Shown piece after piece: positions 1,825 through 13,810 of a stretch of DNA of 30,752 nt. Made by a program: the position numbers and the translations under genes. Each line of letters opens with the position of its first letter. Position 1 is the stretch's first letter. The stretch covers positions 1 through 30,752 of IMG/VR virus record IMGVR_UViG_3300044676_000834, one strand, 5' to 3'. A model generated the notes under the pieces. That model did not search any database, was not told where the DNA came from, and saw nothing but the letters and a program-made list of their open reading frames with translations. The stretch is from a virus. Its lineage: Duplodnaviria > Caudoviricetes.

Positions 1825-3339
1825 ATGACAACTATCGCAATAAACCCGATGGTGGTTTCGGTTAGTCCTACTAACGCTACCCCCATCCATAGTATCCAAC
1901 CTACCGAACATGGCGGCGGCGCAAAAAAGCTCGTAGCTGTTGTAGCGGCAGTTGCAATTCCGTTTGCAGCCCCAGCTATCGCGTCAGCTATCGGACTTTC
2001 GGGCGCAATCGCAGCCGCAGGTGCCAGTGCCACAATCGCTTCTGTCGCAGGTTCTGCTATTGTGGGCGCAGGTCTTGGAGCCATTAGTGCAAAAGTTACA
2101 GGTGGCGACGTTAAAACTTCAGCTATCTTTGGCGCTATCGGCGGCGGTATCGGCGGTTATACTTACGCACAAAACCCAGCTAACGCAGCGCAGATAAGCG
2201 GTCAGACAGGATCACAGACCTCAGCAACACTAGCTGATGGCACAAGCTCACTAACAGGTGGCGCTGACGCAGGTACGACTCTTTCTGGCGGCACTGATCA
2301 GCTCGCTCTTGAGCCTGGGGCAGGCGGTGGAAGCAACCTAACTAACGCATCATATACCCCTGCGCAATCAGGCGATGTAGCAGCCCAACTGTCTAACACT
2401 GGCAACGCACAAGTTGTAAACGCTAGCCTTCCTGGCTCTACTGTAGCACAAGGCGGTCAAACGCTAGTTCAATCAGGAGCAGGCGCAGGAACACAAGTCG
2501 GAACTTACGCATCTCAGCTGCCACCTGACGCCTCATTTGGCGCTAAGTTTGTAGCTGGTGTAAAAGATTCTGGTTCTGTACTCGCATCTAAACTAACTAG
2601 CCCAGATGCTATTGCTAACGTAACGCTTCAAGCTGGCGGTCAGCTACTAGGTATGGCGCTTGCGCCTGACCCTGAAATGCCACCAGAGCAAAAAGAACTG
2701 CTTGAAATGCGTAAGCAAGAACTGGCGCAGCTTAAAGAAAAAGATGAAGCAGCGTTTAACGCACAGATGGATGCCGCTAAGCAGTATCTACAGCAAGCTA
2801 AGCAGTACGACCCAACATACATGGCGTTCCAAGCGGCTAATAAAGAAGCCATTGAACAACAGCGTAAGTTGCGTGAGCAGTATCGTCGCGCTGGGTTGTC
2901 TCGCGGTAGAAATATTAGTGAAGCAGAAAAACGCCGCATGAGCCTAGACGCAGCGCGTAGTGTCAGCTCCGAGTATGATCGCGGGTTCCAGACTGGATTG
3001 ACTGCTCAAAACAGAACTACACAGGCTGGGCTGTCAGCAATTCCTAGTTCAGCACGGTTTGCTAACTATATCTCTGGGCTTAAGAGTCTTGAAGACGATA
3101 CCAGTAGCGCAATGGCAGCAGCTAGAGCGCGTAGTTCAGGTGCAGCTAAGAACATTTCTGACTTGTTTGCTGGCTTTAATGTTAAGGCAGGTAACACTGC
3201 AGCAGCACAAAACCAGATGGCGGGCTTGAAAAAAGACGCTGTTAGTGGGTTGCCAGATGGCTCTGATAAGGATGAGGAAAATAATATTCCAGACTCTGTC
3301 AAACCTTTCTATCAGCCTGACGGCTTTTATCAGGTATAA
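1825..3339 (+). CDS. Putative DNA ejection / internal virion protein with a hydrophobic Gly/Ala-rich N-terminus, 504 aa
   Basis: GGAGG RBS; long GxxxG/AxxxA hydrophobic stretch (LVAVVAAVAIPFAAPAIASAIG…GAIGGGIGG), a Gly/Ser/Thr linker and a C-terminal coiled coil. Confidence 0.7.
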   Translation: MTTIAINPMVVSVSPTNATPIHSIQPTEHGGGAKKLVAVVAAVAIPFAAPAIASAIGLSGAIAAAGASATIASVAGSAIVGAGLGAISAKVTGGDVKTSAIFGAIGGGIGGYTYAQNPANAAQISGQTGSQTSATLADGTSSLTGGADAGTTLSGGTDQLALEPGAGGGSNLTNASYTPAQSGDVAAQLSNTGNAQVVNASLPGSTVAQGGQTLVQSGAGAGTQVGTYASQLPPDASFGAKFVAGVKDSGSVLASKLTSPDAIANVTLQAGGQLLGMALAPDPEMPPEQKELLEMRKQELAQLKEKDEAAFNAQMDAAKQYLQQAKQYDPTYMAFQAANKEAIEQQRKLREQYRRAGLSRGRNISEAEKRRMSLDAARSVSSEYDRGFQTGLTAQNRTTQAGLSAIPSSARFANYISGLKSLEDDTSSAMAAARARSSGAAKNISDLFAGFNVKAGNTAAAQNQMAGLKKDAVSGLPDGSDKDEENNIPDSVKPFYQPDGFYQV

Positions 3340-3351
3340 GGAGTAACGCCG

Positions 3352-6048
3352 ATGGCTTTGCTGGGTAACTTCATAGGTGGTGCGTTAGGGCTTCAGTCTG
3401 GTGAGTCGTACACTCAATCAGTAGAGGCCGCTAATCGTTTACAAGAGTTGCAGCGCAAGAATCAAGCGCGTGAGAACCAGCTCGCCTATGGTGTTGACAC
3501 TGAAATGCGAGACGGTACAGCAGGTGTTAAACCTCTTGACGCCCCAGAGCCATTTGATTTTGATACGCTACAACAGCCAGGGTTGCGGAATATTCCCGTT
3601 GTGCCTCCTGCTGCGGTCGATCAAGAAGGCGGCGTGGCCGATGGAGTACCTCCAGCAGGCGCAGAAACTAAACCTGTACCAAAAACAGATGGCAGCGGTA
3701 ACTTTGTTATTGAGCCTAAAGACGGGACTATACCTAAAGCACCCACTACTGATCTTACTGATCCGTATACTGAGCCTGCTAATGAGTTTGATCTTCTACC
3801 GTATCCTGGCCCTGAAGTACCGGACTTAAACACTTATAACCCTGCTGCAAAAGCGGGCGAAGAAGCTAAGCGTAAGAACCTAAAAGGCGCAATGTCGGAA
3901 GTTATGCGGAGCGCGAACATAAAGCGCAAACATGGCAGAGCAGGTAAGAATGTAACTAACGAACAAGATTTAGCGTATGAATGGTGGACTAGCGATGAAG
4001 CGTTCCAGTTGTTCTACAACAAACCAAGTGTTCTTAGCATGGCAAAGCAAGACCCTATCGGATTTGCTTTGCGCTACATGCAACAAAGCGACCAACGCGC
4101 AACATCTGAAGTAATTACACAGGGTGCAGCTAGAACTAAAAAGCTAATTGATGGGCGGGTTGAAGGACTTAAAACTGAAATAACCAGTGATAAAGTTCAG
4201 CGGTTGTATAGAGCTGCTAACGACATAGGCATTGATCCTTTCGCTGCGATTGCAATTTTCGGTATTGAGTCTGACTTTGGCCGTAACGCAGGTACAAGTA
4301 GCAGAGGCGCTAAAGGCGGCATGCAAGTCATGCCTGAACAGTTTGAGCGCTTAAAGAAATGGTTTGCTGACCCTGCTAACCGCGAACAAATTGAACGTGC
4401 GTTTACTATGGCAGATGGCACAGTAAACCAAGCGCGAGTAGAGTACGCCATACAGACATTTTCTAATATGAAGATGCCTAATGCCAGAGGAATGGGCGGT
4501 AACGGCGGTGAAATTTATGGCGGACTTGCACAGCTGGTGTATAACAAAGCCATTGGCCTACCTAAAAATCTATGGGGTGCTGGGTATCAGACTAATGCCA
4601 ATAAAGTTTTAGAAGCCGGTGCGCCTTTAGCTGTAGATGATGGCAATATCAGTAACTCTGATTACAACCAAGCGTATGTGTCGTTGTATAACCACATTCA
4701 ACAGACCTACGGCAAGCAGCTTGCGGACATCGAAACTCCTTACGGCATTGACTTAGCTACTATTGAAGGCTCTGGCGTTGGCAAACCTACAATGGTGCAG
4801 GCACCAGTAACGGAAACAGCGCAAACAGGTGGGCAGGACAACCAACCTCAAGCAGGCGCAGGCCAAACGCAAACTCAGACGCAAACTCAGACGCAAACTC
4901 AGACGCAAACTCAGACGCCAACAAAGTTTGATGGTGGGTTTGAAATCCGTATGGAAGATGGGCCAGTTGTCTATAAAGACGGCAAACCTATTGGCAGATT
5001 TGCGGAGGGCACTCCAGAAGCCTCAATGTCTGCAGCGGAAGCCTACATTGCCAAAGAACTTGGGCAGAATGTAGCAACACCAAACATCACAATCGCTGGT
5101 AAAGAAGAAAAGTCAGCGGCAAATGAGGGCGTTGACCCTGATATTACCAAGTTTTTGAAAGACCCTCCTGCTATCGGCATCGAGATGAAAAACATCATGC
5201 GTGCCAGAGAGCTAGAGCAACAGCTTCTCCAGCGTAGGATAGATGAAGCCAACGCACAGATTGAAGCCAACAACCGCAAAGTCCAAGAGTATGAGCGTAT
5301 GGCTCAAGTAGCCCGCATCAGCGGTGATTTGGACGGTTACACTCGCTATAGAGGTTTGGCTGATACTGTAAACGCACAGTCTGTTCAGCTCCGTAACTCA
5401 GCCCGCGTGGCTGTGGACGAAGGCAAAGTCAAAATGCTGGGGTACGACAACAAGATACTGCTGGCACAGGGCGCACAAGCACTGCAAGACTTAACCTATG
5501 GCTCGACAGCTCGCGCTGGCGCAGTATTGTCTGCGTATTCTGGCCTTGATATTAAGGTACAGCCACGGTCTGACGGTAAGTTTGACATCGTGGTGCAAGG
5601 CGATGTGCAAGCTACATATACTATGAACCAGCTGTCTGATAAATTGCAGTCAGCGTTTAGCCAAGCCTATCGTGACCAGAAACAGAAGACACAAACAGAA
5701 CGTCAGACATATCTGTTTGAGAAAAATGTTGATCTGCAAGTTGAACTGGCTAAAGAACGTCAGAAACTCATCGGCACTATCAAAGAGAAGACGCTTCAAG
5801 GTAAGATTGACGCTTATCTTAAGTCAATTGAAAACGCTAAAGGCGAGTTTAAGACTCTTAATAACGGTATGGCTGTTATCTTTGACGGGCAAAACTACTT
5901 CCTGCTAAACCCAGAAGCTATCGTTACAGACCCAGAAACAGAAGAAAAATCTAAGCAGCCACGGTTGTTCCCACTAGACATGGCACAGGCACAAGCGTTA
6001 GCCTCAGGAGTAGGATCAGCAGAAGCGTTCAAGAACGCGGCGAAATGA
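3352..6048 (+). CDS. Internal virion protein with an SLT-type lytic transglycosylase domain, 898 aa
   Basis: TAAGGAG RBS; AANDIGIDPFAAIAIFGIES (catalytic Glu codon at 4267-4269) followed by SSRGAKGGMQVMP matches SLT motifs I and II; C-terminal coiled coil. Confidence 0.8.
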   Translation: MALLGNFIGGALGLQSGESYTQSVEAANRLQELQRKNQARENQLAYGVDTEMRDGTAGVKPLDAPEPFDFDTLQQPGLRNIPVVPPAAVDQEGGVADGVPPAGAETKPVPKTDGSGNFVIEPKDGTIPKAPTTDLTDPYTEPANEFDLLPYPGPEVPDLNTYNPAAKAGEEAKRKNLKGAMSEVMRSANIKRKHGRAGKNVTNEQDLAYEWWTSDEAFQLFYNKPSVLSMAKQDPIGFALRYMQQSDQRATSEVITQGAARTKKLIDGRVEGLKTEITSDKVQRLYRAANDIGIDPFAAIAIFGIESDFGRNAGTSSRGAKGGMQVMPEQFERLKKWFADPANREQIERAFTMADGTVNQARVEYAIQTFSNMKMPNARGMGGNGGEIYGGLAQLVYNKAIGLPKNLWGAGYQTNANKVLEAGAPLAVDDGNISNSDYNQAYVSLYNHIQQTYGKQLADIETPYGIDLATIEGSGVGKPTMVQAPVTETAQTGGQDNQPQAGAGQTQTQTQTQTQTQTQTQTPTKFDGGFEIRMEDGPVVYKDGKPIGRFAEGTPEASMSAAEAYIAKELGQNVATPNITIAGKEEKSAANEGVDPDITKFLKDPPAIGIEMKNIMRARELEQQLLQRRIDEANAQIEANNRKVQEYERMAQVARISGDLDGYTRYRGLADTVNAQSVQLRNSARVAVDEGKVKMLGYDNKILLAQGAQALQDLTYGSTARAGAVLSAYSGLDIKVQPRSDGKFDIVVQGDVQATYTMNQLSDKLQSAFSQAYRDQKQKTQTERQTYLFEKNVDLQVELAKERQKLIGTIKEKTLQGKIDAYLKSIENAKGEFKTLNNGMAVIFDGQNYFLLNPEAIVTDPETEEKSKQPRLFPLDMAQAQALASGVGSAEAFKNAAK
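4864..4917 (+). repeat. Coding tandem repeat: CAAACG plus 4 x CAAACTCAGACG, encoding (QT)9
   Basis: Four perfect 12-bp units read directly at 4870-4917. Confidence 0.95.
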
Positions 6049-6055
6049 GGTAAAT

Positions 6056-9000
6056 ATGGCTAAAGCAGGACTCTCATTTGGTAGCCCTACACTTGGCGCG
6101 ATGGATTTGGAGCCACTGGGCAACCCATATGATCCAGCTCCTGACATTGGTATAGGCAACCTTATCGGCACCAAAGAAGCTCTAGGCGTTCAAGCAGACG
6201 CAGAGCTAGGTGCGGCTATGTCGCAGTTCGATTTGCCTAAAGTAACTAAGCCATCTGCAGCACAGATGGGGCCGAATGTTTTGTATAGCGAAACACAAGG
6301 CAAGATGTTTGTGAATGGCTCGCTATTTGACCTCGACGATGCAGATAACGCACTACGGTCTATAGAGTATTTGGACAAACCACGGCAGGGTAATCCAGAA
6401 GGTGACGGCTGGCGCCCTCTTACACCTGACGAATACGGCAGATACATCAAAGCTATTAAAGACCCTAGCTACGGCAGACGGTTTGCCGAGAACTGGGAGA
6501 CAGGTGTAGCATCACTGAAGTCTTTGTTCGGTGCAGGCGCTGTGCTTGTAGGCGCAGAAGAATATGGCCTTGGGGTCATGGAACGCGCCGGTGAGACCAT
6601 GCGTAAGAACGCACCGTTCTCAGGTGAGTTTACTGAAATCGGGCTAGGTGACGAAGACTTAGGCCCAGTTGAGTGGTTTGTCGGGGTGCTAGGCTCACAA
6701 GGGCCGATGCTTCTTGAGACTATCGCAGCTGGTGCAATAGGTTTTGTTGCAGGTTCCGCTACTGCAGGGCCAGGATTAGGGTCTGTAGGCGGCACAATCG
6801 CTGGTCTTACAGGTAAAACTGCATTTAAGAAAGCTGTTAAAGAAGCAGCAGAAGCCTACGTTAAAGAAAAAGCTAAAGGTAAAGCAGCCGCTAAAGCCTT
6901 TATGAAAACAGAGCAGGGTAAGACACTCAAGCGTGCCTCAGGTATTGCTGGAGCCACTGCTTTTGCATACACCAACAACTTTGGTATTGGCGCGTCAGAC
7001 GTATATTCTGAGTTACTTGAGCAGGGTATAGACCCAAGTGACTTTGACGCTAAGATGTCTGCACTGGCAACCGCTGTGCCTTACGCTTTGCTAGACACCA
7101 TCCCTGAGTTTGTCGCAGGGGCTAAGATATTTGGTGGTATTACTAGAGGATCAAAAGGCGGACGTTTACGCCGTGGCACTACAGGTGCTGTGGCTGGTGG
7201 TGTTATAGAAGGCACAACTGAAGCAGGCCAAGAAGGTCTGATTATGGGTACGTCCAACCTAGTAACAGGTAAGGACTACAGCGACGAAGCGCTCCACCGC
7301 CTTATCAATTCATTTGCCGCAGGCTTTGCTATTGGTGCGCCTATCGGTGGCATCACTAACCTTAAAGGTAATAAAGAAGCAGACCTTCTACAGGGCAGCA
7401 CTACTGAGCAGGAATCTGGGCCTACAACTATGGCACCAGATCAAGAGACTGGGCAGGGCGAGCTGTTTACTGAAGAAGAAACTCTGTCTACTGACCCGTT
7501 TGTTGGGCCAAGACCTATTGCACCAGAAGATACTACGCCTGCTGCAGTGGCAGAACGAGACGCTCTGCTGAACGAAAAGAACAAACTACAACGCTTTATT
7601 AGCGAAGCAAACATCCAACTTTCTGATATGGCTAGCGGCAGAGCTACCCTAGACGAAGGCCGTGTAACTCAGCTACGCAGTCAGATTCAACAGGCTCAGC
7701 AGGCAGTGGCTACTATTGATGAGTCACTAGGACAGTTCCAAGGACTCCCAGGCCAAGCACAGCAGTTTGCAGAGCAGATGGGTACACAACCCACCCTGTT
7801 CGAGCCTGCACCTGCGCTTAATGTAGAGACTGCAACCGAGACTCCGTCCGGTCAGATGCTGTTACAGCCAGAGCGTAGAGTCACAAGAACTAATTTTGTA
7901 GGCCCACAGCCACAGTTAGCACCAGACCCAACACCAGTGGTAGAGCCAACGCCAGAACCTGCGCCTACTCAAGCAGAGCTAGAAGCAGCTGGTCAACAAA
8001 CGCTACCACTCCAAACTGATTTACCTAGTCAAATCCAGCAGACTGCAGCGCAACAGCCTGCAGAGGCACAACCTAATTTGTTACAGCAGCGTATGCAGGA
8101 AGCAGCGCGACAAGCTCAGTTGCGGGCGGAGGAAGATAGGCTACGCGCTGAAGCATTGCGGGTAGAGAACGAACGCATCGAACGGAATAACCGCGAACTC
8201 GAAAACTCACTTGCGATACAGCAGGCGCAGAACGAGATCGCGGCATATGAGGCGGAGCAATCTGGTATGACACCGGTAGCAACTCCTCCTGCGCCGGTTG
8301 CAGACCTCCCTACTGCACCTGTCCCAGTTGTTCCGCCTCGCCAGTTAGACCTGTTCCGTGGACAAGTGAAGCTACCTAAGATTTCTAAAGCGGAACAGAA
8401 AGCCATTAACAAGGCTAATCGTCTACGCCGTAAACAAGAGCAAGAAGCCGTCGCCGCTGCAGAAGAAGCGGCACGCCCAATGACCCCAGCGGAAGCGCGT
8501 GCGGCAGGGCAAGGCATACTATTAACACAACGGGGCGAGCCGTCTGTAGCTGCACTCAAAGCAGCGGGCACCCGAGAGGAGACAGTCACACCAGAACTTG
8601 TTCAGGCAACACCTGCTGAAGAGACTGTCGTCGCCCAGCAACAGCAAATCAATGCGCTTCAGCGCAGGGTAGAAGAGCTGGCAGCAGCTCAGGAGGAACA
8701 AAATGCCGTTCAAGAGCGAAGCACAGCGCAAGTGGATGTACGCGAACAACCCGCAGATGGCGAAGCAGTTCGAGGCCGAAACACCGAAGAACGCAAAGCT
8801 GCCGCAATCGCTAAGTCCCAAGAGCGTATCAGAGAAGAGGCGGATCGCACGGCAGCAAGCCGCGCTGAGAAAGCAGAAGAGACCATTCGGGAAGATAGCG
8901 GTCAACAAGGTGTACAGGAAGATAGCGTACAAGAGCGATATTTCGTAGACCAATCAGAGAGCGAAGAATTTATCGTAGAAGAATTGATCTACGACTTTGA

Positions 9001-12000
9001 CTCTAAAGAAAATATGGACGAGCTAAAGACCGTGGCCTTGTCTTTGATGGACTACGCCTACTGGTCTGCGGCTCCTAGCGGTACTAGCAACGTGGCTAGA
9101 GATTACAAAGCAGCTAGAGAGAAAGCCAAAGCCTATGTAGATAAAGCGTTTTTAGACCCTGAGTATTTCTACGAAGGCCAGATAAAACTACTGGATCGTG
9201 AGTTCTATAAGCAAGCAGTCAACGCAGATACCAGATCATCTACGCAACCGTGGTATGAATATGCTACTCGCCGTGGGCTTGTCGAAAGCATCGCGCTGAA
9301 GTCAGATGGAACCACTCGTGTAGAGATAACAGGTAAGCCGCACGAAAAAATCTTTGGTAAGGCCAAGCCTAAAGTAGCAAAAGCTAATGTATCCGAGATT
9401 GTCGATGACGATTTTGATGATACATACGACCAAGCTGCACGCGATATGGATGAGAAAGACGGTAAGTTCTACCGTGTCGAGGATGGTTCTGAGATTACCA
9501 GCCCTCTAAGTATTGTCCGTGTGCAGGCCATTGCGTCTAAGATACTAGGCAAACTAAAGACCAAGCCTAAGATTTATGTGGTTCGTAACCAAAGAGACCT
9601 GCTTGAGAAACACCCAGAAGTGTACGCAAGAGCTAGAGCCTCAAGACCTAACAACGATTTCGATACAGTTAATGCAGCAGGCTTCTCTGTAGCAGATGAG
9701 ATTATTCTGTTTAGCGATAACCTTAAGACTGAGCAGCAAGCCAAGTTTGTTATAGCCCACGAAGCTATGGGCCACTTTGGTTTCCGTGCGTTTATGCCAC
9801 CTGCGCAGCTTAATAAGTTGTTGACTGATGTGTATAACAGCGACTCTTTTGTCCGCCGTGTGGCTGACGCTAAGATGGAACTGTATGGCACAGACAGGCT
9901 GGAAGCCATCGAAGAAGTATTGGCTGACGCCGCAGCAGACATAGACGCAAGCATAGTTAAGCGCGTGTGGTACGCCATCAAAGATGCTCTAAATGCTATG
10001 GGCTTTAACTTTGAAGACGACCTCGCCAGGTACATGCTACGGCAATCACGCAGGAACTTGTTGCAGGGAGGCAGTAGTCTCGTAAGTATGCAAGAGCTTG
10101 CGCGTAATCTCAAGAGCTTACAGACTGACAACACGTTGGGACGTTACTCACTCGCAGAAGATACTGCAGACGCAGTATCTCGCGCTATGTCATCCCACGC
10201 CTACACCAAGCGTAGCGGTAAATACGGCGGTATGCGGGCGGTCAAACAGGTAGTTGCTGACTTCAAAGACATAGAAAATATTAAGGATGTAGGCTCTTGG
10301 TTCGGTAGCCTGCTTGAAAATGTCCAGTCACTAGACAACCTTGCTACTCGCAGCGATGGCTTGATGCAGGTGTTTAACATCTTCCAAGCTAGGTCAAACA
10401 GATCAAGACGGTTCCTGTCTAACTATGAAAGCATGACTGCATTCTCGCACTCTGCGTTTAGTTTCACAGATGAGAACGGTGTCAAGCAGACTGGCCCTAC
10501 ATCAGAAGAACTAGAGTTCGCAGGTGAACTGCTAGCCCATGCTGCGCTGCACAAGCAGGCCACTATTAGTGACGCAGACATCCGTGACCTTGGCGACCTT
10601 GTCGTTATGGACGGCAACAAAGTAGGGGTTGTGCGTGATAACTTCCAAACAGCTGTAGAAGCTGGCGAACTAACACGCGAAGATTTCCAGAATGGAATTA
10701 CTGTAGAGCTTGGCGACCAAGAGCAGGGTGTATTTGAGCAGCGGACTTACCGCCCACTAGACTCTGAAGGCAACCCAAGAACTATCACTGACAGAGTGTG
10801 GCGCATCTACACAGAGCAGCGCAACGCAGTAAACCAAGCTGCGCTAGATGTTCTTACATCTCACATCGAAGGTGGTATTGCACAGCGTGAAGCTACCATT
10901 GAAGGCTTCAAAGAAAACTACAATATGACTGACGAAAACACTGCCGCGATGCGCCGTGTGATGGAAAAGTATATTGAGATTTACCAAGCAAACGCCAGAC
11001 AAGAAGGCGGTAGCTACCAATACGACAACGAATCCGTAGCAAAAGCACGCGGGTTCTTGCGTGAGATCAACCGTGCTTTGTTTGAGAAGAAGAAAGTAGA
11101 CGACTGGAAGCAGGGTAACGCCACTTGGAAAGACACAGAAGGTAAAGAGCAACGCTTTGATACCGCTGAGTACCAAGATATTATTGATGGCTTGGATGCT
11201 CTGTCTGCTAGAAACTACAACAAAGATAAAGCCAACCAAATAACATCTGCTGTTGGTAACTTGTACCTGTTAGAAGTTCAGTCAGCTAACGCGCAGTTCA
11301 ACGCAAAACGTACGATTATGACATCGTATGTACCGTTTACACGCCGTGGCAATCATCAAATTCGACTGGCTGCGTATGATGAGAACGGACAACCAGTTGA
11401 TCTTAGCCCTGTTTGGCGGACTGTCTTGCCATATTACCAAGCTGGTAATGCTAAAGACGCTCGTGAGATTGCGGCTAACTTGAATGAAGAATTTGGCGGC
11501 AAAGACTTTGAGATCGAAGATGCAAACGGGAAGACACGGACTATAACCTTCCGAGCAATTTCCGAGAAGACCCGTCAGGGTTCTGTCTTAGGTCAGCAGT
11601 TTAGTCTCAACGACTTCATCAACACTCTTGCTCGTCTTGATGTCAACATAAACCCACAAGAACGTGAACGTATTGTGGAAGCATTGACGAAGCAGACTGA
11701 CCGTGCTCGTAGAAGCCTACAAAGAGCAGGTGTTAAAGGTTGGGATAAGGATGTAGTAAGAAGCACCTCTGAATACCTTGAGACTCAAGGCCACATTGCA
11801 GGTCAGACATTCTATCGCCACCGTCTGAACAACATCATGCTGAGAGACAGCCTCTGGCGTGGTGATTACTCTAAGGTTCAAAGACTGTTTGCTGAGACAC
11901 AGCGCACTGATCTATCCCCTGAACAGCTGCGTGCAGCACAGACTGCCTACGACAAATATGCTGTCATGTATTCGAACATGGCAGGTATCGGGGCGCCTGA

Positions 12001-13810
12001 AGCTATCAACAGAGTAGATGCAGATAAGAAGCGTGCGGCAGGTGACTCAACTGCACCTAAGACTATAGCTAATAAAGGTAAGGGTGAGACTTATAGAGCC
12101 ACTGCGCTAGGACTTCAGCAATGGTACGCTGATGCGGCAAACATCAATGATTCAACTGAGGACTTGTTGTCAGGTGAAACAGGCTCTCGCCTCAAGATGT
12201 GGACTGTTGTTGCCCAACTTGGTGGTTCTGTAGCCACCGCAGGTATCAACATGGTGTCAATGATGACACACAGTATTCCTTTCTTGGCTACATACAACGA
12301 GGCTAGAGGTTTCGGGGGCGGCTTTGGTCTGGCTAAAGCGTCTTTTGAAATGCAGCGAGCAGCTCGTAACATGGGTAGTCCAAAGCTAGCTGATGCGGCT
12401 TATCTACAGAAAGTAATCAACGATCCGAGACTACAGAAGAAACATAAGATAACCCAAGAAGAAGCCTTGTTCCTTGCTGACGCTACATCTGAAGGCGTAT
12501 TGCAGTCTGCACAGGCTAACGCTCTGATTGGTACGGCTCGTGGCGGTATTAACAGCAACAAACTTCAAGGTGGAATTAAAGGTTGGATGTATATGTTCTC
12601 ATATACTGAACAGCTAAACCGTAGATCGACAGCACTGGCGGCATACAGGATGCACATCCAGCGAGCAATCGCAGGAACACCAAACTTCAACAGCTTGCCA
12701 CAAGAACAACAGCAAGAGATGATGGAGCAGTTCCGCGCTGAAGCCACTGAGTTTGCTCGTAACGCTGTGAATACTTCGCAGGGTGAATATGGTATGTTCA
12801 ACCGACCAGAGATGGCTCGTGGTAACGTAGGCCAGTACCTGTTTATCTATAAGCAGTTCTCTATCATCACGATTCAGATGCTTCGGAACCTTAGTCCTGA
12901 GGGTAGGCTCTACTTTATCGGTATGCTTATGCTTATGTCTGGACTGAAAGGTATGCCTTTCGCAGACGACCTAATGGATTTGATTGACACTCTCCTGCAA
13001 ATCTTCAACATCAAAGAAGCAAGCGTAGAGAAAGTTATGTATGAGTTGTTTGAAGACCTAGCCCCTGGCTCTGCTAAGTACATCATGCGTGGCGGACTAG
13101 ACCAGTGGACTTCGGGTACTTTCTCAACCCGACTTGGCTTTGGCGATATGATTCCGCTTACTGGTGCAGGTAGAGCAGGTGCTGACACAGGCCGTGAGAT
13201 TACCAACTTCTTTGGCCCAGTCTACTCAGGCATTGAAGGTGCGTTTGCAACGGTAGGAAACGCAACCAAGTATCTGGCCGGAGCCGTAGGGATCAAAGAC
13301 CAGACAATGAGTTTCTCTGACGTATTCCGTGACGCACCCGTAGCGGCATTGCGTGGTTTGACCGATGCTTACACTTACTATGACACTGGCGTAGTCACAA
13401 ACTCTCAAGGTAAAGTGATTGACCCGAGTGCTACTTGGGGTCAGACGCTTATGAGAGCCGCAGGTTTCTACCCATCAGTAGCGACTAGATCAAACGATGT
13501 GGTCAGACTAAGCAAGTATACAAGTGAGTATGTCAAAGCCCTCAGAGCAGACTACACTAGCGCATACTCTAAGGCTTATATCGAAAACGACCTAGACCGT
13601 ATGATTGAGATTGAGCTTATGGTGGATGATTGGAACACCATCCACTCAGGTACAGAGTTTGAATTTACAGACTTCAAGAACAGAGCCAAGCGGTCTGCTG
13701 AGTCTGCCGCGCTACCTACGGCACAGCGTTACTTAAAGACTGCGCCTAAGAACGTCCGCCCAGATACCCAACGCTTGATGGAGATCATGGGCATTGATGA
13801 CGTTCAGTAG
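6056..13810 (+). CDS. Giant polyvalent internal virion / ejection protein with a zincin-like metallopeptidase motif and a PLxRFG-like C-terminal region, 2584 aa
   Basis: GAGGT RBS; Gly-rich hydrophobic N-terminal region; low-complexity P/Q/E linker; AHEAMGHFG…IEEVLAD (HEAMGH at 9758-9775); YVPFTRRG at 11327-11350; hydrophobic helices near the C-terminus. Confidence 0.8.
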   Translation: MAKAGLSFGSPTLGAMDLEPLGNPYDPAPDIGIGNLIGTKEALGVQADAELGAAMSQFDLPKVTKPSAAQMGPNVLYSETQGKMFVNGSLFDLDDADNALRSIEYLDKPRQGNPEGDGWRPLTPDEYGRYIKAIKDPSYGRRFAENWETGVASLKSLFGAGAVLVGAEEYGLGVMERAGETMRKNAPFSGEFTEIGLGDEDLGPVEWFVGVLGSQGPMLLETIAAGAIGFVAGSATAGPGLGSVGGTIAGLTGKTAFKKAVKEAAEAYVKEKAKGKAAAKAFMKTEQGKTLKRASGIAGATAFAYTNNFGIGASDVYSELLEQGIDPSDFDAKMSALATAVPYALLDTIPEFVAGAKIFGGITRGSKGGRLRRGTTGAVAGGVIEGTTEAGQEGLIMGTSNLVTGKDYSDEALHRLINSFAAGFAIGAPIGGITNLKGNKEADLLQGSTTEQESGPTTMAPDQETGQGELFTEEETLSTDPFVGPRPIAPEDTTPAAVAERDALLNEKNKLQRFISEANIQLSDMASGRATLDEGRVTQLRSQIQQAQQAVATIDESLGQFQGLPGQAQQFAEQMGTQPTLFEPAPALNVETATETPSGQMLLQPERRVTRTNFVGPQPQLAPDPTPVVEPTPEPAPTQAELEAAGQQTLPLQTDLPSQIQQTAAQQPAEAQPNLLQQRMQEAARQAQLRAEEDRLRAEALRVENERIERNNRELENSLAIQQAQNEIAAYEAEQSGMTPVATPPAPVADLPTAPVPVVPPRQLDLFRGQVKLPKISKAEQKAINKANRLRRKQEQEAVAAAEEAARPMTPAEARAAGQGILLTQRGEPSVAALKAAGTREETVTPELVQATPAEETVVAQQQQINALQRRVEELAAAQEEQNAVQERSTAQVDVREQPADGEAVRGRNTEERKAAAIAKSQERIREEADRTAASRAEKAEETIREDSGQQGVQEDSVQERYFVDQSESEEFIVEELIYDFDSKENMDELKTVALSLMDYAYWSAAPSGTSNVARDYKAAREKAKAYVDKAFLDPEYFYEGQIKLLDREFYKQAVNADTRSSTQPWYEYATRRGLVESIALKSDGTTRVEITGKPHEKIFGKAKPKVAKANVSEIVDDDFDDTYDQAARDMDEKDGKFYRVEDGSEITSPLSIVRVQAIASKILGKLKTKPKIYVVRNQRDLLEKHPEVYARARASRPNNDFDTVNAAGFSVADEIILFSDNLKTEQQAKFVIAHEAMGHFGFRAFMPPAQLNKLLTDVYNSDSFVRRVADAKMELYGTDRLEAIEEVLADAAADIDASIVKRVWYAIKDALNAMGFNFEDDLARYMLRQSRRNLLQGGSSLVSMQELARNLKSLQTDNTLGRYSLAEDTADAVSRAMSSHAYTKRSGKYGGMRAVKQVVADFKDIENIKDVGSWFGSLLENVQSLDNLATRSDGLMQVFNIFQARSNRSRRFLSNYESMTAFSHSAFSFTDENGVKQTGPTSEELEFAGELLAHAALHKQATISDADIRDLGDLVVMDGNKVGVVRDNFQTAVEAGELTREDFQNGITVELGDQEQGVFEQRTYRPLDSEGNPRTITDRVWRIYTEQRNAVNQAALDVLTSHIEGGIAQREATIEGFKENYNMTDENTAAMRRVMEKYIEIYQANARQEGGSYQYDNESVAKARGFLREINRALFEKKKVDDWKQGNATWKDTEGKEQRFDTAEYQDIIDGLDALSARNYNKDKANQITSAVGNLYLLEVQSANAQFNAKRTIMTSYVPFTRRGNHQIRLAAYDENGQPVDLSPVWRTVLPYYQAGNAKDAREIAANLNEEFGGKDFEIEDANGKTRTITFRAISEKTRQGSVLGQQFSLNDFINTLARLDVNINPQERERIVEALTKQTDRARRSLQRAGVKGWDKDVVRSTSEYLETQGHIAGQTFYRHRLNNIMLRDSLWRGDYSKVQRLFAETQRTDLSPEQLRAAQTAYDKYAVMYSNMAGIGAPEAINRVDADKKRAAGDSTAPKTIANKGKGETYRATALGLQQWYADAANINDSTEDLLSGETGSRLKMWTVVAQLGGSVATAGINMVSMMTHSIPFLATYNEARGFGGGFGLAKASFEMQRAARNMGSPKLADAAYLQKVINDPRLQKKHKITQEEALFLADATSEGVLQSAQANALIGTARGGINSNKLQGGIKGWMYMFSYTEQLNRRSTALAAYRMHIQRAIAGTPNFNSLPQEQQQEMMEQFRAEATEFARNAVNTSQGEYGMFNRPEMARGNVGQYLFIYKQFSIITIQMLRNLSPEGRLYFIGMLMLMSGLKGMPFADDLMDLIDTLLQIFNIKEASVEKVMYELFEDLAPGSAKYIMRGGLDQWTSGTFSTRLGFGDMIPLTGAGRAGADTGREITNFFGPVYSGIEGAFATVGNATKYLAGAVGIKDQTMSFSDVFRDAPVAALRGLTDAYTYYDTGVVTNSQGKVIDPSATWGQTLMRAAGFYPSVATRSNDVVRLSKYTSEYVKALRADYTSAYSKAYIENDLDRMIEIELMVDDWNTIHSGTEFEFTDFKNRAKRSAESAALPTAQRYLKTAPKNVRPDTQRLMEIMGIDDVQ
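8703..8948 (+). CDS. Overprinted small basic protein (MPFKSEAQRKWMYAN…), 81 aa, in the +1 frame inside the giant gene
   Basis: AGGAGG at 8691-8696, 6 nt before the ATG. The N-terminus resembles small phage proteins of the MPFKSxxQRxxMxA type as I recall them. Composition 13 K + 7 R versus 5 D/E. Confidence 0.7.
   Translation: MPFKSEAQRKWMYANNPQMAKQFEAETPKNAKLPQSLSPKSVSEKRRIARQQAALRKQKRPFGKIAVNKVYRKIAYKSDIS

What the first reader, a model, noticed from the sequence alone, without database searches (positions are those of the whole stretch)
8691..8948. Overprinted basic-protein gene nested in the +1 frame of the giant virion protein
Seen: a perfect AGGAGG at 8691-8696, a 6-nt spacer, then ATG opening an 81-codon ORF (MPFKSEAQRKWMYANNPQMAKQFEAETPKNAKLP…, net charge about +15). 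It lies wholly inside the 2584-aa gene, where the host frame reads the acidic, disordered-looking linker EEQNAVQERSTAQVDVREQPADGEAV. Recalled, not searched: stand-alone small phage proteins beginning MPFKSxxQRxxMxAxxPxxAKxW/F are widespread, and AVQExS…VxVRE-like segments recur in large phage virion proteins. Inference: that linker motif may simply be the shadow of this hidden gene. If so, this is a conserved dual-coding cassette that gene callers miss, and it would supply a small DNA-binding or condensing protein alongside the ejection protein, or reflect a gene engulfed by the expanding polyvalent ORF.
Basis: partly seen in the sequence, partly recalled or inferred. Interest (0 to 1): 0.88.

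Follow-up and report, generated by a model that had tools for sequence, protein, structure and literature searches.

The report
Old small gene inside giant gene
A gene for a small, very basic protein lies in a shifted reading frame inside this phage's giant virion-type gene, keeps its own start signals in many related phages and also occurs free-standing, so it is very likely a real but overlooked gene, probably for a DNA-binding protein packed into the phage head.

Summary
Confirmed. AGGAGG (8691-8696) and ATG 8703 open an 81-codon, +15-charge ORF in the +1 frame of the 2584-aa gene.

Loci found with the host protein alone carry it in 45 of 53 informative cases. Five more hold a different small basic protein (phrog_2423) in the same slot; three hold neither. 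A Shine-Dalgarno motif precedes 35 of 37 distinct starts (background 3.8%). Selection follows the small frame (pN/pS 0.41, host 1.22).

Its 37-residue core belongs to a large family (3,868 clusters). The family is also free-standing in head modules, fused at N-termini, and nested, always +1, in an unrelated scaffold-position gene (68 of 80) and a second giant family, including cultured Flavobacterium elemo phages, unannotated.

So 'overprinted' is backwards: the small gene is probably the older frame and the acidic host linker its shadow. Translation is not shown. A head-internal DNA-binding role is inferred (about 50%); a distant relative, Patience gp10, is expressed but has only one virion spectrum.

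My paper searches found no report of it. This scan noted the arrangement earlier on other genomes.

The parts
8691..8696 (+). Shine-Dalgarno sequence of the nested gene
   Evidence: Sequence. GGAG/GAGG precedes 35 of 37 distinct nested starts in this giant family, against 223 of 5871 other +1 ATG/GTG codons in the same genes.
8703..8948 (+). Nested 81-codon gene for a basic protein, +1 frame of the giant gene
   Evidence: Conserved in 45 of 53 informative host-selected loci. pN/pS 0.41 in this frame against 1.22 in the host frame.
8703..8813 (+). Core module, residues 1-37, predicted two-helix hairpin; shared with free-standing, fused and other nested copies
   Evidence: Alignments A1, A4, A5. 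3,868 representatives at E<=1e-3. AlphaFold helices 6-15 and 17-26, pLDDT about 90.
8814..8945 (+). Lineage-specific basic tail with a predicted helix at residues 42-59
   Evidence: In eight close relatives pN 0.149 against pS 0.397. Short or unrelated in free-standing copies.
6056..13810 (+). Host gene, 2584 aa, giant ejection-type or polyvalent-like virion protein (role inferred)
   Evidence: phrog_11358 over residues 2042-2571, E 4e-39. Distant match to the C-terminal part of the Pseudomonas F116-type giant proteins. Third of three large genes after 504-aa and 898-aa ORFs.
8702..8950 (+). Host-frame acidic, low-hydrophobicity linker that is the shadow of the nested gene
   Evidence: Composition. 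Host third codon positions are the least variable here, the reverse of the flanks. Replaced or deleted in frame in some relatives.
9758..9775 (+). HExxxH metallopeptidase-like motif in the host protein
   Evidence: Sequence. HEXXXH variants are described for polyvalent-protein peptidases in PMC5512222 (passages). Activity not tested.
1825..6048 (+). Two upstream virion-type genes (504 aa; 898 aa with a weak transglycosylase match), likely the same late operon
   Evidence: (SLT 18.5 bits, below the 21.3 cut-off). Co-transcription is inferred from spacing.

Best explanation
An 81-codon gene of a widespread family of small basic phage proteins sits in the +1 frame inside the giant gene with its own conserved ribosome-binding site and start, and it is very likely translated by internal initiation on the late mRNA to give a likely head-internal, DNA-binding accessory protein. 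Shown: the frame, its conservation, selection on it, and the free, fused and nested states of the family. Inferred: translation (about 0.9); that the small gene is the older frame and was taken into a dispensable linker by insertion or by growth of the host ORF across it (about 0.8); that the product is packed into the head and neutralises or organises DNA beside the ejection proteins (about 0.5). The +1 register is likely kept because only that shadow reads as an acidic, non-hydrophobic linker that a scaffold or ejection protein tolerates. The gene looks accessory: it can be swapped for another small basic protein or lost.
For: (1) Host-selected relatives. 5 of 5 loci at 34-62% identity carry it, 4 of them not found by the small-protein search. 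In a wider set, 45 of 53 informative loci carry it. (2) Start signals. SD in 35 of 37 distinct starts against 3.8% background; 33 ATG and 4 GTG, so the start function is kept while the host residue changes. (3) Selection. Differences per host codon position 1/2/3 are 0.321/0.241/0.169 inside the overlap, against 0.174/0.150/0.357 and 0.327/0.317/0.597 in the flanks. Scaffold nests give 0.395/0.309/0.222 against 0.268/0.198/0.478. Among strain variants listed from four runs, 1 of 8 inside and 23 of 31 outside fall on host third positions, p 0.003. (4) Free copies with the host frame closed lie between terminase and portal, between portal and a scaffold-position gene, after portal, or right after a giant gene. 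(5) The module is N-terminal in 79 of 81 listed proteins of 150 aa or more, including a Mu F-like head protein and InPase-domain proteins; both domains are tied to phage heads or phage polyvalent proteins in PMC5512222. (6) Frame choice. The frame that nests use is open in only 2 of 36 free copies, the other frame in 27 of 36, yet none of 120 loci was nested in the other frame. Nested shadows hold D+E 0.26 against 0.13 in free copies. (7) Patience gp10, a distant relative just after the portal among very basic particle proteins, was detected by mass spectrometry. (8) T4 internal proteins give a precedent for lysine-DNA contacts in heads (PMC3012670).
Against: No ribosome or peptide data exist for any nested copy. 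Patience gp10 has only 1 stringent spectrum in particles (4 at 30 min, 2 at 2.5 h). Its link to this family is distant: 15.3 bits with one profile (best of 2000 shuffles 7.1) but 5.4 bits with another (best shuffle 10.7). There is no PDB match by sequence or fold. Two complete relatives lack both small families (G002, G003). Some free copies lie outside head modules (L072 beside a ribonucleotide reductase). Pairwise rates are not independent, and the locus counts include near-duplicates. The core tree is unresolved, so the number and direction of captures cannot be read from it.
Confidence: 0.6

Rival explanations
1. The gene is real, but the conserved 37-residue module is mainly a head-targeting tag that docks on the scaffold or capsid interior. 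Alone it carries a basic tail; fused, it brings cargo into the virion.
For: N-terminal in 79 of 81 long proteins with unrelated cargo; fusion to a Mu F-like protein. T4 internal proteins share only a targeting sequence (PMC3012670).
Against: Most copies carry no cargo beyond a short basic tail. The module is predicted to fold as two helices. The profile begins at the start Met, which favours N-terminal hits. No packaging data.
Confidence: 0.17
2. The gene is real but acts in the infected cell (late regulation, host shut-off or counter-defence) rather than in the head.
For: Accessory and swappable pattern. Patience gp10 has more spectra in cells than in particles. Some free copies lie outside head modules.
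Against: Nests occur only in scaffold-position and giant virion genes among those classified. Most free copies whose neighbours were annotated adjoin terminase, portal, head or giant genes. The 30-min signal at MOI 100 can come from input virions, as the pattern of neighbouring particle proteins suggests.
Confidence: 0.13
3. Classical overprinting: the +1 ORF arose de novo inside the giant gene and free-standing copies escaped later.
For: It is a +1 internal overlap, the commonest kind for de novo viral frames (PMC8227390). The core tree cannot exclude a single origin.
Against: The small frame is far more widely distributed than this host family: free copies occur in cyanophages and actinophages, and nests occur in non-homologous hosts. 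Host relatives such as F116 and the elemo scaffold lack it. A second, mostly free family (118 of 120 free or fused) fills the same slot.
Confidence: 0.05
4. The host-frame 'AVQE' linker is the functional element (for example a cleavage or targeting site) and the +1 ORF is its silent shadow.
For: Nested shadows are more acidic than those of free copies, so the host frame is under some compositional selection.
Against: Host pN/pS is 1.2-1.3 and host third positions are frozen. SD and start are conserved, including ATG/GTG swaps. The same protein is encoded with the host frame closed. The segment is deleted or replaced in frame in relatives.
Confidence: 0.03
5. A programmed +1 frameshift gives a shortened giant protein ending in the basic tail, with no separate initiation.
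For: In the window the +1 frame is open 10 codons upstream of the ATG.
Against: In two scaffold nests a +1 stop directly precedes the ATG (L078, L087). In this giant family the upstream open stretch varies from 2 to 79 codons. The SD is at initiation spacing, and free copies start identically.
Confidence: 0.02

Closest known systems
Embedded o-spanin genes (lambda Rz1 in Rz); embedded, overlapped and separated spanin architectures (PMC6139136, passages read)
   Same: A small gene wholly inside a larger one in the +1 frame. The same family occurs embedded and separate. New host segments are proposed to arise in the frame shifted against the small gene.
   Different: Spanins nest in their functional partner. 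This family nests in at least two non-homologous hosts (scaffold-position gene; giant genes of two families), shares its slot with an unrelated small protein, and has no hydrophobic signal or cysteine in the window copy.
phrog_1375 (unknown function; includes Patience gp10 and Barnyard gp9)
   Same: Shares the FKS..Q.RW pattern and two-helix core. 20 of 52 family members match, best E 1.2e-5. Barnyard gp9 is hit by profile and fold. Patience gp10 lies after the portal.
   Different: The window protein itself has no match at E 0.01. Patience gp10 and Barnyard gp9 have a basic extension before the core and are free-standing.
phrog_2423 (unknown function; weak DUF6496 likeness)
   Same: Small basic protein starting M-P-x-K, found in the same +1 slot in five relatives.
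   Different: A different family: the profile of this family did not find it, and it is mostly free-standing or fused (118 of 120).
T4 internal proteins IPI-III (PMC3012670, passages read)
   Same: Proposed analogy: small proteins packed with the DNA, with lysine-phosphate contacts, a conserved N-terminal element and variable bodies.
   Different: No sequence or fold match found. Packaging and processing are untested here. T4 IP genes are not known to me as nested (recalled).
Out-of-frame ORFs translated inside Patience genes 91 and 20 (PMC4324244, section 11 read)
   Same: Same-strand embedded ORFs with ribosome-binding sites and peptide evidence in a tailed phage.
   Different: Those had ambiguous or no conservation and no close database relatives; this one is conserved and belongs to a large free-standing family.

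Membership tests
Embedded (nested) same-strand gene | Wholly inside another ORF in a shifted frame, with its own start signals | tested here: met
Embedded (nested) same-strand gene | Purifying selection on the nested frame | tested here: met
   pN/pS 0.41-0.47 and inverted codon-position pattern
Embedded (nested) same-strand gene | Translation shown | not testable with these tools
   No ribosome profiling or peptide data available
Overprinted (de novo) viral gene | The new frame has the narrower distribution and lacks remote homologues (PMC8227390) | tested here: not met
   3,868 clusters, free copies and nests in unrelated hosts
Two-component spanin (Rz/Rz1) | Nested product is an outer-membrane lipoprotein inside an i-spanin gene | tested here: not met
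   No cysteine or hydrophobic signal in the 81-aa product; the host is a 2584-aa virion-type protein
phrog_1375 | Profile match | tested here: inconclusive
   Window protein none at E 0.01; 20 of 52 relatives match, best 1.2e-5
DUF3008 (PF11450) | Pfam match | tested here: not met
   Nearest named Atlas cluster only at 0.77; absent from the 25 of 26 families shown for 52 members at E<=1
T4-type internal head proteins | Small and basic | tested here: met
   81 aa, +15; relatives 45-98 aa, +9 to +23
T4-type internal head proteins | Sequence or fold homology to IPI-III | tested here: not met
   No PHROGs, PDB sequence or Foldseek match
T4-type internal head proteins | Packaged in the head by an N-terminal targeting sequence | not testable with these tools
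   Only indirect: N-terminal position; one particle spectrum for a distant relative
Phage large polyvalent proteins (host gene) | Named polyvalent domains such as LPD38 by Pfam | tested here: not met
   No such Pfam family at E 0.01
Phage large polyvalent proteins (host gene) | Zincin-like peptidase motif and kinship to known giant virion proteins | tested here: inconclusive
   HExxxH at residues 1235-1240; 26-28% identity to the C-terminal part of F116-type giants; phrog_11358
DUF6496 (alternative slot occupant) | Pfam score above cut-off | tested here: not met
   15.2 bits against cut-off 24, in 1 of 3 proteins

The most novel reading that the evidence does not exclude
Aquatic phages keep a hidden layer of exchangeable cassettes for small basic head proteins that repeatedly colonise the +1 frame of acidic linkers in scaffold and ejection genes. 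A single-copy gene moves between intergenic, scaffold-nested and giant-nested sites, unrelated families swap within one slot, and many 'acidic disordered linkers' of virion proteins are the shadows of such genes. The shared N-terminal module would be a general head-packaging signal.
Probability: 0.35. Interest if true: 0.9.

Novelty: new variant of a known kind. Interest (0 to 1): 0.76.

Why it matters
It gives a natural series for how a nested gene forms from a pre-existing gene: free, adjacent, nested, swapped and deleted states all occur, with the host linker as the newer frame. That is the reverse of textbook overprinting. It means a recurring acidic motif in scaffold and giant virion proteins should be read as a hidden gene, and that a very large family of tiny basic phage proteins is under-annotated. 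All 68 elemo-phage records that matched carry it under a 'structural protein' annotation, so translation and function can be tested in a cultured phage-host pair.

Tried and rejected
Families and structures: Pfam, PHROGs and NCBIfam give no family for the window protein. PDB by sequence gave only chance-level hits and Foldseek PDB none at E<=0.001. BFVD hits are uncharacterised proteins. A wider fold comparison of solved chains was not obtained, so a remote fold match remains open. The ESM Atlas gave unnamed viral clusters under 0.9.

Expression: no RNA holder was listed; this is no evidence either way. No promoter-like site on the + strand was found in 7800-9400, and the start region folds no better than shuffles, z -0.83.

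Other nests: no second SD-led nested ORF with support in relatives lies in the window's five structural genes. Four 'free' copies lie opposite long antisense ORFs; the two types inspected are shadows of portal genes. F116 and phage Y7, distant host relatives, gave no hit in the regions fetched.

Unbiased test of the second giant family failed: only the three seed contigs came back.

The tree of 112 cores is unresolved, 12 of 109 branches starred. The host tree was the quick version only.

'One copy per genome' rests on 10 records of the elemo-like lineage. Seven had exactly one hit and three had none, but two of those three carry divergent nests that the search missed, so it is only suggestive.

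PMC7150772 does not mention Patience gp10. No complex prediction was run. Supplements of the phi24B preprint and of the spanin paper were not seen.

Full report
Observation. The sequence is as described: AGGAGG at 8691-8696, six bases, ATG at 8703, 81 codons, net charge +15, in the +1 frame of the 2584-aa ORF at host residues about 883-965. On its own this is only mildly unusual. The frame stays open in 34% of synonymous recodings of the host segment, and an equivalent SD-led ORF appears in 36 of 2000 codon shuffles of the gene. The window is a 30.8-kb virus record with a virion-type module on the + strand and a replication module on the - strand. The five runs that hold half or more of its sampled words are estuary metagenomes. 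The host protein matches phrog_11358 and, distantly, the C-terminal part of F116-type giant proteins. An ejection role is inferred from size and position, and from the proposal made for the phi24B giant protein (bioRxiv 10.64898/2026.04.10.717836, passages).

Conservation in the host family. A search with the small protein gave 26 viral loci. Eleven are nested in the +1 frame of long ORFs (2470-2678 codons where complete, three cut by a locus end) and one in a 281-codon piece of an apparently broken giant. Four are N-terminal parts of larger proteins, and ten are free 43-45-aa genes with the host frame closed. To avoid circularity I then searched with the host frame only. All 5 loci from a mid-protein query (34-62% identity) carry the ORF with SD and start at the same place; four had not been found by the small-protein search. 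A profile of the host C-terminal region gave 80 loci. I dropped 27 that are cut short of or at the site (one of these, L230, shows the ORF at its edge). Of the remaining 53, 45 carry this family, 5 carry a different small basic protein in the same slot, and 3 carry neither. These counts include near-duplicates; there are 37 distinct nested proteins, 45-98 aa, median charge +15. GGAG or GAGG lies upstream of 35 of 37, against 223 of 5871 other +1 ATG/GTG codons in the same genes, and four use GTG.

Selection. In eight close relatives the overlap shows differences per host codon position 1/2/3 of 0.321/0.241/0.169, while the flanks show 0.174/0.150/0.357 and 0.327/0.317/0.597. pN/pS is 0.41 in the small frame and 1.22 in the host frame. 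Over all twelve sequences the core gives 0.47 and 1.32, the tail 0.62 and 0.89. Pairs are not independent. Strain-level variants agree: of the rows shown (77 more were not shown), 1 of 8 places inside the ORF and 23 of 31 outside fall on host third positions. Some inside rows may come from other organisms that share the core.

The family. A degenerate pattern for the first 12 codons matches an estimated 860 stored viral stretches. Of 120 returned, 74 are nested, 43 free or fused and 3 unclear; 23 of the 74 rest on short loci where the host frame runs off the edge. All nests use the same register. With the overlap masked, the hosts fall into groups without BLAST similarity. One is a roughly 400-aa gene between portal and the virion structural protein, the scaffold position; another is a second giant family (phrog_32588); the third is the window's family, with L086 a distant member. 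Scaffold loci chosen by the host C-terminus carry the gene in 68 of 80 (50 by a profile built only from free and fused copies, 18 divergent), with 3 degenerate and 9 lacking it; this set is ranked by likeness to carriers. The scaffold and second giant genes belong to one phage lineage that includes the cultured Flavobacterium elemo phages. There the ORF lies unannotated in the giant structural gene, and 68 records match. A profile of the 37-residue core finds 3,868 clusters at E<=0.001. The module is N-terminal in 79 of 81 listed proteins of 150 aa or more, with cargo such as Mu F-like, InPase, DUF5661, NUDIX and cupin domains; 64 of 74 long proteins scanned had no Pfam family. Free copies lie between terminase and portal (L042, L054, L084), before the portal (L051), between portal and a scaffold-position gene (L048), after portal (L107) or directly after a giant gene (L033, L105); L072 lies elsewhere.

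The slot. In one clade, sister loci hold either this family (L271, L286) or a phrog_2423 protein (L275, L276, L277, L283, L288) behind a like SD and start, or have the segment removed in frame (L269, L274). phrog_2423-type genes are free or fused in 118 of 120 sampled loci and nested, again +1, in two other long ORFs. Two complete genomes of the window's family lack both families. The slot therefore behaves as an accessory cassette.

Direction of origin. The review PMC8227390 (passages) takes the more widely distributed frame as ancestral and expects de novo frames to lack remote homologues. By that rule the small gene is old and the host linker is new. Capture needed adjustment: the frame used by nests is open in only 2 of 36 free copies, and the third codon is TTC in 77 of 77 nested or unclear copies against 23 of 43 free ones. 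The other frame is open in 27 of 36 free copies but reads basic and hydrophobic, and is never used. Nested shadows are twice as acidic as those of free copies. I infer that the host tolerates, and tunes, only an acidic linker. Whether capture was by insertion or by the host ORF growing over an adjacent gene is not settled; the core tree is unresolved. Non-homologous hosts imply at least two captures.

Function. AlphaFold gives helices 6-15, 17-26 and 42-59 (mean pLDDT 83, pTM 0.49), with no PDB match. The nearest library family is phrog_1375 (20 of 52 members). Its member Patience gp10 follows the portal among very basic particle proteins and is listed as a virion protein in PMC4324244 (Table 1, section 11 and Table S1 read). 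The support is thin: 1 stringent spectrum in particles, 4 at 30 min, 2 at 2.5 h, and a link to this family that passes with one profile and fails with another. Charge, late head-module context and the T4 precedent (PMC3012670, passages) make a head-internal DNA-binding accessory protein my best reading, at about 0.5. A head-targeting tag and an intracellular role are the rivals.

Comparison and novelty. Nested genes are known, and spanins show embedded, overlapped and separated forms of one family (PMC6139136, passages). What differs here is one small family nested in unrelated structural genes, a slot shared with another family, and an old nested frame under a young host frame. Searches of the held library found no paper on it; most subscription papers are not in that library. 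Earlier notes of this scan report the same arrangement on other genomes, including the slot and scaffold nests. I had reached these results before reading them; they prompted the spanin reading and a check for further nested genes in the window, which found none. Verdict: real, new variant of a known kind, interest 0.76.

Noticed in passing
L397 and L406 (pattern match at 4001-4038): phrog_2423-type genes nested in the +1 frame of two other long ORFs (1020 and 2000 codons), so this second family also nests elsewhere.
   Followed up: partly
L261:3-11599: The giant gene is split into an N-terminal part that holds the nested gene and a separate 1964-codon part, with tail- or decoration-like genes between them.
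   Followed up: partly
window 8703-8792: The first 30 residues are closest to copies in more distant hosts (L250, L244, 83%) while the tail resembles nearer hosts (L240); many unrelated contigs begin to match at 8696-8703. This hints at exchange of the 5' part.
   Followed up: partly
L151:8001, L153:8001, L152:8001 (P-RSP2, S-CBS2, C75C1): Free-standing copies are unannotated in these GenBank records; several Gordonia phage records likewise have no feature under the Barnyard gp9 match.
   Followed up: partly
L329:2726-4331 (Patience genes 111, 10-13): A run of extremely basic small proteins (+14 to +40) follows the portal; gp111, gp11, gp12 and gp13 have 30-153 particle spectra.
   Followed up: partly
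L172, L173, L174 and 15 more scaffold loci; L205, L209, L224: Divergent variants of the nested protein escape a profile of free copies (18 of 80), and three loci hold what look like decayed versions.
   Followed up: partly
window 13810/13811: The giant gene and the convergent 957-aa primase-like gene end back to back with no spacer.
   Followed up: no
L015:7146-9813: A free copy heads a cluster of small basic genes, one of which (phrog_7595) also matches part of a minor head protein profile.
   Followed up: no
P0026-P0206: In many fusion proteins the module is followed by short E-S, K-x-A or similar motifs that I recall as resembling prohead-protease sites; recalled, not tested.
   Followed up: no
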